From NCBI GenBank assembly GCA_946500615.1, contig CAMMWP010000001.1:152561-184560 (forward strand): a stretch of DNA of 32,000 nt. The letters are read 5' to 3'. Of the stretch, positions 30,868 through 32,000 are shown piece after piece. The position numbers and the translations under genes are program-made. The notes below the pieces were generated by a model. It was given only the letters and a program-made list of their open reading frames with translations. It was not told the origin of the DNA and ran no database searches. The stretch is from an uncultured Clostridium sp. GTDB lineage: Bacteria; Bacillota; Clostridia; TANB77; CAG-508. How positions within the stretch are numbered: the first letter of the stretch is position 1; every line of letters begins with the position of its first letter.

Positions 30868-32000
30868 TTACAAGTATAAAGTGAGACGAAAACCGAAAAT
30901 CTTGTTGTCGACATACGGACGACTGCTAGTACGACGAGAAGCTGGACCGTCAGAACCTGTACTGCGATAACTTCCTCGACTAACACGATAGCCAGTGCCG
31001 TCAGACTCCATTGTCCATTCATATACATTTCCTGCTAAATCATAGATATTATTTATAGCATAATCTGCGCTTGCTCCTGTCTTGGCTAAACTTCCTGTAT
31101 AACTTCCTTTTCCTGTAGAATCTCTAACAAATGAATTTTCTGCACAACTTCCTGTTTTATATGCTGGATCTATCCATGCCATAATAGCATCCCATTGCAC
31201 GCCATATATTAAGGTACTTGTTACTGACGTATATCCATTTTCACTTGCGAATTCCTTTGCTTTTTGTACTGCTCCTCCTGTTTCATTTGTCATGTCATCA
31301 CTATCTGACCAACCTATATAATTATACGCATTTTTTCCCTGCTTAATCACTACATCATCTGTAATTCCAGAATTTTCTGTTCTTTCTGTTTCATTCTCGA
31401 TTCCTGCTTCATATCTTCCTACATAAAATCCATTATGCTCTAATACACTTGCTTTCATAGCATCATATTCAGCTTTTTCACTAGCATATCCATTTGTACA
31501 AGGTTCTTCACACTTTGGTAAGTATGACTGTAATTCGCCCGAAGAATATCCTTCATACGTTTTAAAATCTTCATCATTTTCTACTGGCACCCAGACAAAT
31601 TGGTTTCCTTTTAATGTTTTCGCTATCTCCCAACTTGTTCCTTTATTTGCATCATCCGGGTTGTCACTTATCACAATTCCTTCTGCTTTTGTTCCTCCTA
31701 CATAATAAAATCCTTCTGGAATTGTAACACCTTCTACTGTTGTCTCTCCTGTATTTCCTCCACCTGTATTATCTCCTACTGTTATATTTCCATTATTATC
31801 AATTGTATAACTTCTTCCTGTATCACTAAATGTTACGGTTAATGTTCCATCTCCATTATCTGTTACGTTTGCATTATATCCATTATTTCTTAATTCTGCC
31901 TGTAAATCTGTGGCACTTACATCTTTTCCTTCATGATCTATTTTTACTCCATTATATGCCACTCCTATGGCTTCTTTTTCTTCTCCTATTTCTGTTTGCT
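30868..32000 (-). CDS. FGE-sulfatase (SUMF1) / C-type-lectin-fold domain protein, N-terminus outside the window
   Basis: The motifs GFYVGRYEAG, YGVQWDAIMAWI, YDLAGNVYEWT, RVSRG and FGFRL match the FGE-sulfatase fold. The frame stays open upstream of the track's GTG at 31962 through the window edge (..QTEIGEEKEAIG-VAYNG). Confidence 0.8.
   Translation of the reverse strand, partial: QTEIGEEKEAIGVAYNGVKIDHEGKDVSATDLQAELRNNGYNANVTDNGDGTLTVTFSDTGRSYTIDNNGNITVGDNTGGGNTGETTVEGVTIPEGFYYVGGTKAEGIVISDNPDDANKGTSWEIAKTLKGNQFVWVPVENDEDFKTYEGYSSGELQSYLPKCEEPCTNGYASEKAEYDAMKASVLEHNGFYVGRYEAGIENETERTENSGITDDVVIKQGKNAYNYIGWSDSDDMTNETGGAVQKAKEFASENGYTSVTSTLIYGVQWDAIMAWIDPAYKTGSCAENSFVRDSTGKGSYTGSLAKTGASADYAINNIYDLAGNVYEWTMESDGTGYRVSRGSYRSTGSDGPASRRTSSRPYVDNKIFGFRLTLYL
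30882..31009 (-). other. Candidate diversity-generating retroelement variable region (VR)
   Basis: My hand count gives about 51% G+C and about 19% A on the coding strand, set within an AT-rich gene. All 7 Arg codons here are CGN, while AGA is used upstream. Twenty of 23 consecutive codons are NNY. The tract sits at the extreme 3' end of a C-type-lectin-fold gene. Confidence 0.35.

What the first reader, a model, noticed from the sequence alone, without database searches (positions are those of the whole stretch)
30868..31015. Adenine-depleted, GC-rich NNY-codon tract at the 3' end of the FGE/CLec-fold gene: a candidate DGR variable region with no TR or RT in view
Seen in sequence: the last ~45 codons of the minus-strand FGE-sulfatase-domain ORF change composition abruptly. 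My hand count over 30882-31009 gives about 51% G+C and about 19% A on the coding strand, in a window that is otherwise below 30% G+C and A-rich on coding strands. All seven Arg codons in ...GYRVSRGSYRSTGSDGPASRRTSSRPYVDNKIFGFRL are CGT/CGA/CGC. Every Arg I checked further upstream in the same ORF (GRSY, VGRYE, TER, VRDST) is AGA. From agt(S) to aac(N), 20 of 23 consecutive codons are NNY. Established knowledge: DGR target proteins very often use this C-type-lectin/FGE-sulfatase fold, with the VR at the extreme C-terminus ending in a GFR-type motif. TR/VR pairs avoid adenines at invariant positions and carry AAY-derived NNY codons at diversified ones. Inference: this is a VR. The canonical RGGSW of the fold is replaced here by RGSYR, which fits diversification. 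No template repeat, Avd-like basic protein or reverse transcriptase lies in the window, so the cassette is either beyond coordinate 32000 or acts in trans.
Basis: partly seen in the sequence, partly recalled or inferred. Interest (0 to 1): 0.7.

Follow-up and report, generated by a model that had tools for sequence, protein, structure and literature searches.

The report
Orphaned DGR variable region, cassette deleted
The odd GC-rich, adenine-poor tail of this gut Clostridia surface-protein gene is a genuine DGR (diversity-generating retroelement) variable region, but the reverse-transcriptase cassette that rewrites it in close relatives has been deleted here, so it is most likely a frozen relic.

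Summary
Window 30882-31009 is 50.8% G+C and 19.5% A in a 28% G+C window. Arg codons switch from AGA upstream to 7/7 CGN, and 20 of 23 consecutive codons are NNY.

The tract (VR = 30877-31007, minus strand) is homologous to the variable regions of a very large family (more than 7,900 clusters) of pilin-like, FGE-sulfatase-type proteins from uncultured gut Clostridia. In syntenic relatives (L015) the target gene is followed directly by MSL, bAvd, RT and a template repeat (TR). There, 22 of 23 VR/TR mismatches lie at TR adenines, and strains have identical proteins outside the VR but 16-19 of 45 differences inside it.

In the window those roughly 2.6-2.7 kb are missing. Only a 36-nt terminator joint (30764-30799) lies between the homologous flanks. 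No RT, Avd, MSL or TR is present.

The same junction occurs in two lineages and at least 9 VR-spanning contigs. Strains that differ by flank SNPs show no VR differences. A third lineage has an empty site.

The cassette is not "just beyond 32000"; its expected position is inside the window and empty. A remote DGR acting in trans cannot be excluded, because the rest of the genome was unreachable.

The parts
30868..32000 (-). 3' 1133 nt (376 codons plus stop) of the target gene. The full gene is 449 aa and starts about 217 nt beyond the window edge. It has a prepilin-like N-terminal helix (outside the window) and an FGE-sulfatase/CLec-type C-terminal domain.
   Evidence: ORF list. Full-length gene in L001 1783-3132. 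Pfam FGE-sulfatase in 30/32 family members and N_methyl in 8/32. Family profile hits pFGE 1y4j at E = 1.4e-5 over the tail.
30877..31007 (-). Variable region (VR), 131 nt. It is adenine-poor, uses CGN Arg codons at scaffold positions and NNY codons at diversified positions, and is one codon shorter than the family norm.
   Evidence: The L015 TR aligns to exactly 31007-30877 and nowhere else in the window (E = 2e-13). Mismatches are 25/47 at TR-A vs 14/84 at non-A positions.
31006..31050 (-). 45-nt block immediately 5' of the VR, encoding NIYDLAGNVYEWTME. It is identical at DNA level in another species' family member.
   Evidence: Exact 45-nt match to L035. This explains why three k=31 Logan contigs (L002-L004) all break at 31033-31044.
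30845..30899 (-). 3' end of the VR (GGTTTTCGTCTCAC, IMH-like), the stop codon, and a predicted nested hairpin spanning them. This is the candidate recipient-side cis element.
   Evidence: A similar nested hairpin is predicted in the window, L015 and L046. Only L046 differs clearly from shuffles (z = -3.9; window z = -0.7), so this is suggestive only. The sequence is conserved with RT-bearing loci.
30800..30867 (-). Flank after the stop codon, homologous to the flank after the VR in cassette-bearing relatives.
   Evidence: Window 30870->30800 aligns to L015 11378-11447.
30764..30799 (.). Deletion joint. This is the only sequence between the two blocks homologous to L015. Relatives carry MSL, bAvd, RT, TR and an 83-aa gene (2.6-2.7 kb) at this position.
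   Evidence: Homology to L015 stops at 11447 and resumes at 14182. The identical joint is present in the sister lineage L106-L111.
30766..30795 (-). Intrinsic-terminator-like hairpin (ACGTCAC-GAAA-GTGGCGT followed by T7) that fills the joint.
   Evidence: Read directly from the sequence. RNAfold gives -20.2 kcal/mol for the 41-nt segment. The consensus scan did not flag it. L015 has a similar GTGGCGTTTTTT terminator at 11554-11574, upstream of MSL.
30395..30685 (-). 96-aa gene (weak DUF6809 match). It is the downstream synteny anchor present in all three states of the locus.
   Evidence: Synteny in L015, L112 and L106.
28930..30228 (-). AAA_14/DUF4143 ATPase gene. It is an insertion relative to L015 and L112, which have about 90-140 nt at this position.
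   Evidence: Pfam. Synteny blocks.
26353..28809 (-). gyrA, the conserved downstream synteny anchor.
   Evidence: 99% amino-acid identity across the lineages.

Best explanation
The tract is a bona fide DGR variable region that has lost its diversifier.

Its composition is the footprint of templated rewriting. In a DGR, an RT copies a template repeat (TR) into cDNA, misincorporates at TR adenines, and the cDNA replaces the VR. Two consequences follow.
- Scaffold codons in the TR/VR avoid adenine, so Arg is CGN rather than the genome's usual AGA, and the tract is G+C-rich in a 28% G+C genome.
- Diversified codons derive from AAY and appear as NNY.

In relatives the machinery (MutS-like MSL, bAvd, RT, TR) sits immediately 3' of the orthologous target gene and is demonstrably active. 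In the window's lineage a deletion of about 2.6-2.7 kb removed MSL-Avd-RT-TR and the 83-aa gene. This left the target gene, its post-VR flank and a terminator joined to the 96-aa gene.

The VR is therefore most likely frozen. It now evolves like ordinary DNA, and strains differing in the flanks carry identical VRs.

Target alleles with different VRs have been exchanged on this cassette-less backbone by recombination, with a breakpoint at the gene's 3' end.

Shown: VR identity, cassette absence at the syntenic site, the shared junction, and lack of strain-level VR variation. Inferred: the direction of events (loss rather than never gained), present inactivity, and the recombination history.
For: (1) Relatives L015-L020 have target-MSL-bAvd-RVT_1-TR-p83-p96-gyrA. 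The L015 VR (11238-11371) and TR (13579-13712) differ at 23 positions, 22 of them TR adenines. The same signature is seen in L026, L046 and L056. The RT carries the IGNYTSQ motif and the Avd matches NF033474.

(2) Synteny blocks place the cassette's position at window 30764-30799. tblastn and blastn find no RT, Avd, MSL, p83 or TR remnant anywhere in the window.

(3) The window VR against the L015 TR mismatches at 25/47 A vs 14/84 non-A positions (p = 2e-5). It matches 20/22 TR-invariant non-A columns, like active VRs (21-22/23). The decayed paralogue P0014 matches only 15/23.

(4) Family signature: 18 hypervariable tail columns with 4.2% K/E/Q/M/W, against 28.9% elsewhere.

(5) Activity contrast. 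The RT-bearing proteins P0004, P0007, P0008 and P0009 differ at 0/414 residues outside the VR and 16-19/45 inside it. In the two cassette-less lineages, strain pairs with up to 15 flank differences have 0 VR differences.

(6) The same junction appears in at least 9 VR-spanning contigs: L001-L004, L006 and L008 (window lineage) and L106, L109 and L110 (sister lineage), from different samples and assemblers. This excludes misassembly.

(7) A decay series exists in the family: L068 has a split RT, L079 an RT fragment and L069 only an MSL remnant. Tails range from pristine to fully ameliorated. L112-L119 have an empty site.

(8) Window vs the sister lineage: gene 87% identical, VR 72.5%, then 100% over 191 nt after the stop codon. 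This indicates allelic exchange at the gene's 3' end.
Against: The rest of the source genome could not be examined. The 215-kb source contig is never returned by the tools, and the genome is absent from the GTDB-representative, JGI and IMG/VR collections. A remote RT/TR therefore cannot be excluded.

The VR shows no measurable decay at TR-invariant positions, and the recipient-side flank is conserved. That fits either recent loss or continued servicing.

Multi-target DGRs probably exist in this family: four CALXJE paralogues share one scaffold with no RT within 10 kb.

The invariance test is weak. A clone of the RT-bearing lineage also shows one VR across several samples, and strain divergence within the cassette-less lineages is only about 0.1-0.5%.

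The direction of change (deletion vs independent acquisition of a target allele at an empty site) is inferred, not shown.
Confidence: 0.7

Rival explanations
1. The VR is a live remote target. A DGR (RT, Avd, TR) located elsewhere in the same genome, or on a co-resident mobile element, still rewrites it in trans. It would recognise the conserved 3' end of the VR and the adjacent hairpin.
For: Remote and non-adjacent DGR targets are documented, and avd-TR-brt work in trans (PMC5758913, read). Four paralogues in one MAG (L059, L064, L069, L070) share an identical scaffold and vary at codon positions 1-2, with no RT within 10 kb. The window VR is undecayed at TR-invariant positions. Its 3' flank and predicted hairpin resemble those of active loci.
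Against: In the orthologous locus of relatives the cassette is local, and here it is cleanly missing. No cognate TR was found with an adenine-tolerant pattern in the window or in three public collections, although the strain itself is absent from those collections. None of the 120 closest RT homologues lies on the 215,328-bp source contig. There are 0 VR differences among strains distinguishable by flank SNPs, in two lineages. The genome's other paralogue, P0014, has a decayed tail.
Confidence: 0.2
2. The cassette-less backbone came first, either from an earlier deletion or from an empty site as in L112. The present target allele, with an already written VR, was then imported by homologous recombination from a DGR-bearing donor. 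On this reading the VR was never serviced in this genome.
For: There is a sharp identity step at the stop codon between the window and sister lineages: 87% and 72.5% in the gene and VR, against 100% over the next 191 nt. The empty-site state exists. The 45-nt block 5' of the VR is identical across species, and the conserved 3' flank offers a second recombination anchor. L108 and L111 break at 30874, which hints at further alleles on the same flank.
Against: This differs from the main explanation only in the order of events. The post-stop flank (30800-30867) is homologous to the flank that precedes MSL in L015, which fits an in-situ deletion at least once. No donor allele was identified; the nearest homologue is 64% identical.
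Confidence: 0.25
3. The tract is unrelated to DGRs. It would be a composition quirk, a foreign 3' end from a higher-G+C donor, or an assembly chimera.
For: The abrupt composition change alone would be compatible with this.
Against: The tract has base-by-base homology to a verified TR/VR pair, with adenine-specific mismatches. The family-wide variability is restricted to NNY-type residues. The sequence is identical in at least 6 independent assemblies.
Confidence: 0.02

Closest known systems
MSL-containing DGRs ('Architecture D' of Wu et al. 2018, PMC5758913), including the Legionella pneumophila ICE-borne DGR that diversifies the lipoprotein LdtA
   Same: The relatives' cassette has the same parts: a target with a C-terminal FGE/CLec-type VR, a small MutS-like accessory gene, avd, RT and TR. 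It sits in a neighbourhood of conjugation-type genes.
   Different: The window itself has none of MSL, Avd, RT or TR. In the relatives the order is target-MSL-avd-RT-TR, with the TR 3' of the RT. The host is uncultured gut Clostridia at about 28-33% G+C, and the target has a prepilin-like N-terminus.
[quoted passage not shown]
   Same: A gut bacterium, a pilus/pilin-associated adhesin-like target, an Msl plus Avd accessory set, a mobile-element context, and horizontal exchange of the module.
   Different: A different phylum and a different pilus type. Here the N-terminus resembles a type IV prepilin methylation motif, with only weak N_methyl and PilE hits. The window shows the cassette-less end state, which that study does not describe in the passages read.
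Treponema denticola DGR with its remote targets; TvpA structure 2Y3C
   Same: An FGE-sulfatase/CLec-type C-terminal VR. It is the precedent for VRs far from the RT, which is the rival reading here (weak profile hit to 2y3c at E = 0.35).
   Different: The Treponema remote VRs have a cognate TR in the same genome. No TR could be found for the window's VR. The Treponema cassette uses HRDC, not MSL.
Bordetella phage BPP-1 Mtd/brt, the prototype DGR
   Same: The same mechanism accounts for the composition: adenine-specific mutagenesis of AAY codons, a C-terminal CLec-fold VR, and an IMH with hairpin at the VR 3' end (general knowledge; introduction of PMC5758913).
   Different: BPP-1 is a phage tail-fibre system with the order avd-TR-brt. 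The window's locus is cellular or conjugative-element DNA without any of the machinery.

Membership tests
Complete (autonomous) DGR locus | DGR-clade reverse transcriptase encoded near the target | tested here: not met
   tblastn with the L015 RT against the whole window gives nothing (E > 1). There is none in the 2 kb beyond 32000 (L001). The RT is present in syntenic relatives.
Complete (autonomous) DGR locus | Template repeat: a second copy of the VR that differs almost only where the TR has adenine | tested here: not met
   No repeat of the tract in the window. The self-comparison detector finds A-biased pairs only in RT-bearing loci. The adenine-tolerant pattern gives 0 hits in three collections, but the strain is absent from them.
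Complete (autonomous) DGR locus | Accessory protein (Avd, MSL or HRDC) | tested here: not met
   No Avd or MSL similarity in the window. Both are present in L015.
DGR variable-protein (target) family with a C-terminal VR | Homology to targets that have a verified VR/TR pair, with the VR at the extreme C-terminus | tested here: met
   58-64% identical to family members. The syntenic orthologue in L015 has a VR/TR pair with 22/23 mismatches at A. The window's VR ends 9 nt before the end of the stop codon.
DGR variable-protein (target) family with a C-terminal VR | Adenine-specific substitution pattern relative to a TR | tested here: met
   Against the heterologous L015 TR the mismatches are 25/47 at A vs 14/84 at non-A (p = 2e-5). 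The window-vs-sister VR differences are 23/46 at TR-A vs 13/85 elsewhere (p = 4e-5).
DGR variable-protein (target) family with a C-terminal VR | Hypervariability confined to the VR, with residues restricted to the set reachable from AAY codons | tested here: met
   At family level there are 18 hypervariable tail columns with 4.2% K/E/Q/M/W, against 28.9% elsewhere. The RT-bearing strains differ at 0/414 residues outside the VR vs 16-19/45 inside it.
DGR variable-protein (target) family with a C-terminal VR | C-type-lectin / FGE-sulfatase fold carrying the VR | tested here: inconclusive
   Sequence profiles support it. Pfam FGE-sulfatase matches 30/32 members (best E = 7.9e-8), but P0001 itself is below threshold at E = 0.006. 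The family profile hits pFGE 1y4j at E = 1.4e-5 over the tail. The structure test failed: AF2 models have pLDDT below 50 over the VR, and Foldseek found no match in PDB or BFVD.
Currently active DGR target (local or remote) | VR varies between closely related strains or within populations while the flanks do not | tested here: not met
   There are 0 VR differences in all pairs of 7 window-lineage sequences (up to 15 flank differences) and of 3 sister-lineage contigs (3 flank differences). Caveat: one RT-bearing clone also shows a single VR across samples.
Currently active DGR target (local or remote) | Cognate TR and RT somewhere in the same genome | not testable with these tools
   The 215,328-bp source contig and the rest of the assembly are never returned. 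None of the top 120 RT homologues is on a contig of that length, out of 3,286 matches in all.
Currently active DGR target (local or remote) | Recipient-side cis elements (IMH-like GC-rich VR end and adjacent hairpin) | tested here: inconclusive
   The flank sequence is conserved with active loci. A nested hairpin is predicted in the window, L015 and L046, but the window's z-score is only -0.7.

The most novel reading that the evidence does not exclude
The VR may still be a competent recipient, with diversifier and target decoupled in this group of gut Clostridia. Target alleles would sit on cassette-less backbones and be rewritten only when a related MSL-Avd-RT-TR module is present in trans, whether elsewhere in the genome or brought in on a conjugative element. 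The conserved blocks on either side of the VR would serve both as homing signals and as recombination anchors for swapping whole alleles. The full/target-only/empty polymorphism would then be a population-level on/off system for hypermutation rather than simple decay.
Probability: 0.15. Interest if true: 0.6.

Novelty: new member of a known kind. Interest (0 to 1): 0.4.

Why it matters
This shows that a DGR variable region can be recognised from raw composition alone, through adenine depletion, the AGA-to-CGN switch and NNY codons, even when no RT or TR is nearby.

It also documents three natural states of one locus: a full DGR with its target, the target only, and an empty site. Surveys that anchor on the RT cannot see such orphan VRs. 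Roux et al. 2021 state that their approach misses VRs not adjacent to the RT (PMC8144416). Loss and decay of DGRs, and the fate of 'frozen' variable proteins, are therefore poorly counted.

The family is large: more than 7,900 clusters, of which only about 5 of 80 genomic loci have an adjacent cassette. It is restricted to uncultured gut Clostridia and encodes pilin-like surface proteins next to conjugation-type genes. That makes it a useful system for asking what a cell gains by fixing one variant of a hypervariable adhesin.

As biology, however, the mechanism is the known DGR mechanism, and the window holds only its relic.

Tried and rejected
- **Cognate TR search.** I used an adenine-tolerant IUPAC pattern that matches the VR or any TR differing only by A. 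It found only the VR itself in the window and nothing in genome contigs, metagenome contigs or viral contigs. This is uninformative beyond showing that the strain is absent from those collections.
- **Annotated collections.** Megablast of window 20000-32000 found nothing in plasmids. In phages it found only an irrelevant 514-nt gyrA-region hit.
- **Reaching the 215-kb source contig.** It was never returned through neighbouring genes or through P0001. Cluster look-up gave no accessions.
- **Invariance across samples as proof of inactivity.** I rejected this as first framed. Loci retrieved through one exact RT sequence also show a single VR. I replaced it with the comparison of strains that differ in the flanks.
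- **Directional C-to-T decay of the VR.** The four known TRs are too divergent from each other to tell.
- **Coincident Logan contig breaks at 31033-31044 as a biological breakpoint.** Rejected. A 45-nt exact repeat shared with other family members explains them.
- **Hairpin 3' of the VR as evidence for or against competence.** It is not statistically distinct from shuffles in the window.
- **Structure-based test of the fold.** Two AF2 models had low confidence over the VR, and Foldseek found no matches in PDB or BFVD.
- **Cassette remnants.** The conserved region 3' of the TR (GATTATATATTTTAAGGAATATATACA) is absent from the window.
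Full report
**1. Observation**

The minus-strand ORF ending at 30868 runs off the window at 32000. Its last ~45 codons change composition abruptly.
- Window 30882-31009 is 50.8% G+C and 19.5% A on the coding strand. The window as a whole is 28% G+C, and upstream blocks of the same ORF are 33-51% A.
- All 7 Arg codons in the tail are CGN. All 5 Arg codons upstream within the window are AGA. In the full gene the upstream count is 7 AGA plus 1 AGG. Fisher p is 1.6e-4.
- From AGT to AAC, 20 of 23 codons are NNY.
- The only other 128-nt stretch of the 32 kb that reaches this G+C is the tRNA cluster near 19.6-19.85 kb.

The description is accurate and far from chance.

**2. What the gene is**

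Independent metagenome contigs that carry the same neighbourhood (L001-L008) give the full gene of 449 aa.
- The N-terminus (…NGITLIALVITIIVLLILAGVTIATL…) resembles a prepilin methylation helix. Support is weak: N_methyl in 8/32 relatives and PilE1 at E = 0.026.
- The C-terminal domain matches FGE-sulfatase in 30/32 relatives. The family profile hits solved pFGE (1y4j) at E = 1.4e-5, exactly over the RVxRGG…R…GFR tail. P0001 itself is below Pfam's threshold.
- Two AlphaFold models were poor over the tail, and Foldseek found nothing. The fold assignment therefore rests on sequence profiles only.

The family is very large, with more than 7,900 clusters. In genomes it is confined to uncultured gut Clostridia MAGs, often with several paralogues per genome.

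**3. The tail is a DGR VR**

Across homologues the tail follows a fixed scaffold (EWTMES·x·T·xx·RV·x·RGG·xxxx·TGS·xx·PAS·x·R·xxxx·P·x·S·xxx·GFRLTLYL) with interspersed hypervariable positions.
- There are 18 hypervariable columns. K/E/Q/M/W, which cannot arise from AAY codons by adenine mutagenesis, make up 4.2% of residues there. At equally variable columns elsewhere in the protein they make up 28.9%.
- The relative P0008 sits in a syntenic locus (L015-L020): 239-aa gene, HTH_3, target, MSL-like 136-aa gene, bAvd, RVT_1, then an 83-aa gene, the 96-aa gene and gyrA.
- In L015 a TR just 3' of the RT gene (13579-13712) matches the VR (11238-11371). Of 23 mismatches, 22 are at TR adenines.
- The same signature occurs in L026, L046 and L056, and in no cassette-less locus.
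- The RT carries the DGR-type IGNYTSQ motif, and the Avd matches NCBI's DGR Avd model.
- That system is active. P0004, P0007, P0008 and P0009 differ at 0/414 residues outside the VR and at 16-19/45 inside it.

The L015 TR aligns to window 31007-30877 and nowhere else (E = 2e-13).
- Mismatches fall at 25/47 TR adenines against 14/84 other positions (p = 2e-5), plus a one-codon deletion.
Scaffold Arg codons are CGN because AGA would be mutable. Three further Arg codons (CGC, CGT, CGT) occupy AAY-derived positions. NNY codons mark the diversified sites.

**4. Where the cassette should be**

Homology between the window's locus and L015 runs through the target gene to 68 nt past the stop codon (window 30800 = L015 11447). 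It resumes at window 30763 (= L015 14182) and continues into the 96-aa gene.
- L015 has MSL, Avd, RT, TR and p83 in between. The window has 36 nt that form a terminator hairpin (ACGTCAC-GAAA-GTGGCGT followed by T7; -20.2 kcal/mol).
- L015 has a similar terminator at 11554-11574, so the deletion spans about 2.6-2.7 kb.
- No RT, Avd, MSL or p83 coding potential exists anywhere in the window, and there is no trace of the conserved region 3' of the TR.
- The 2 kb beyond 32000 hold only HTH_3 and the 239-aa gene.
- An AAA_14/DUF4143 gene (28930-30228) is an extra insertion relative to L015.

The expected position is inside the window, and it is empty.

**5. The junction is real and shared**

The joint is present in the window, in L001-L004, L006 and L008, and in a sister lineage (L106-L111) found through a 99%-identical variant of the 96-aa protein. 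These come from different samples and assemblers. A third lineage (L112-L119, many samples) has HTH_3 followed directly by the 98-aa gene, with no target gene at all.

The site therefore exists in three states: full DGR with target, target only, and empty.

Elsewhere in the family there are intermediate wrecks. L068 has a split RT, L079 a 48-aa RT fragment and L069 only an MSL remnant. Tails range from pristine VR-like composition to complete amelioration. The window genome's own paralogue P0014 has a tail of 39-40% G+C with no A-bias (21/47 vs 32/84).

**6. Frozen or serviced in trans?**

I first took the identity of the VR across samples as evidence of inactivity. A control undercut that: loci retrieved through one exact RT sequence also share one VR.

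A better test became possible with strains that differ in the flanks. Across all pairs of 7 window-lineage sequences (up to 15 flank differences in 3 kb) and 3 sister-lineage contigs (3 differences in under 1 kb), the VR has 0 differences. In the RT-bearing lineage the VR is completely rewritten at zero protein divergence elsewhere. This favours a frozen VR.

Several points weigh against certainty.
- The VR matches 20/22 TR-invariant non-adenine columns, as well as active VRs do.
- The recipient-side flank and a predicted nested hairpin are conserved, though not statistically distinct in the window.
- Four paralogues in one MAG share a scaffold and vary at codon positions 1-2 with no RT within 10 kb. 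Multi-target or remote DGR action is therefore plausible in this family, and it is documented in the literature (PMC5758913).

The rest of the source genome could not be reached. The only hint is that none of the 120 closest RT homologues lies on a 215,328-bp contig.

**7. Allelic exchange**

Comparing the window with the sister lineage, the gene upstream of the VR is 87% identical and the VR 72.5%. The VR differences are enriched at TR-adenine positions (23/46 vs 13/85). The 191 nt after the stop codon are 100% identical, and the 96-aa gene is 98% identical.

Two different target alleles, each with its own DGR-written VR, thus sit on one cassette-less backbone. That implies recombination with a breakpoint at the gene's 3' end. 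The sister allele retains the RGG codon that the window lacks, so the one-codon deletion is specific to the window's lineage. Three window codons (TAT, GAC, AAG in …RPYVDNKIF) cannot be reached by A-mutagenesis from the nearest known TR. This points either to a different ancestral TR or to ordinary mutation since homing stopped.

**8. Comparison with known systems, and verdict**

The relatives' cassette corresponds to the MSL-containing DGR architecture of Wu et al. 2018, which includes the ICE-borne Legionella DGR. It also parallels the Bacteroides ICE-borne Msl-Avd-RT DGRs that diversify pilus adhesins.

The window itself fails the defining tests for a complete DGR, having no RT, TR or accessory gene. 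It passes the tests for membership of a DGR target family. I therefore file it as an orphaned VR: a new member of a known kind, in a decayed state.

The mechanism that shaped it is the standard DGR mechanism. Its present state is most likely inert (confidence about 0.7), with trans servicing as the main rival (about 0.2).

Noticed in passing
L026 10773-10904, L046 11412-11551 (VRs) and their TRs; also L043 and L095: In a sub-lineage of the family the canonical tail (…GFRxALYL*) lies in the +1 frame relative to the upstream gene. The shift falls exactly at RVxRG|G, where the DNA reads CGT-GGY-C-GGN. In the zero frame this is CGT GGY CGG, and CGG should be a rare codon in such A+T-rich genomes (my inference, not measured). 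The extra base is also present in the TRs, so it is templated and not an assembly error. About a quarter of the top 120 homologue clusters end in 'RGRRLQxYRS…' or 'RGRLL'. This is a candidate programmed +1 ribosomal frameshift inside a DGR VR, or else widespread pseudogenisation.
   Followed up: partly
L059, L064, L069, L070 (all from MAG CALXJE): Four paralogues in one genome share an identical VR scaffold and 3' end. They vary mainly at codon positions 1-2 of fixed-third-base codons, yet are only about 70% identical further upstream, and no RT lies within 10 kb of any of them. This probably reflects one DGR serving several remote targets.
   Followed up: partly
L112-L119 (e.g. L112 5580-6001): A third state of the locus. 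HTH_3 is followed directly by the 98-aa gene and gyrA, with no target gene and no cassette, in many samples. The target plus DGR module therefore behaves as an insertion/deletion unit.
   Followed up: yes
L068 12219-12725, L079 11607-11750, L069 1126-1353: Partly decayed cassettes next to family members: a split RT (L068), a 48-aa RT fragment (L079) and an MSL remnant only (L069). DGR decay appears to be recurrent in this family.
   Followed up: no
L108 and L111, position 1 (equivalent to window 30874): Two sister-lineage Logan contigs from different runs both begin at the C of the last TAC codon, right at the VR's 3' edge. This suggests that a further allele (for example …LFL* instead of …LYL*) shares the same downstream flank in those samples.
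   Followed up: no
window 28930-30237 and 8570-9751: There are two AAA_14/DUF4143 ATPase genes in the window. The one at 28930-30237 is an insertion relative to related loci (L015, L112), lying between the 96-aa gene and gyrA.
   Followed up: partly
window 11326-11386 / 11505-11565, and 1319-1387 / 1760-1828: A perfect 61-nt inverted repeat flanks a 118-nt spacer next to a tRNA-like gene (11162-11240) and the 3' end of the VanW/G5 gene. A second inverted repeat of 69 nt at 90% complementarity flanks 372 nt. Both are inverton-like or hairpin structures of unknown meaning.
   Followed up: no
window 19600-26200 and 26353-28809: gyrA, with no gyrB nearby, sits inside a conjugation/replication-type neighbourhood. 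This holds a TraG/TrwB-like coupling protein (20615-22315) and DnaB_2 and IstB/DnaA-like genes, directly after a tRNA cluster (about 19.6-19.9 kb). VirB4-like and TraC-like genes lie upstream in relatives. GyrA is 99% identical across lineages whose neighbouring genes are 68-85% identical.
   Followed up: no
L015 about 3100-8300; L112 about 1-4500: The region upstream of the 239-aa gene is several kb long and internally repetitive (many 64-70% self- and cross-matches). No genes are called over most of it.
   Followed up: no
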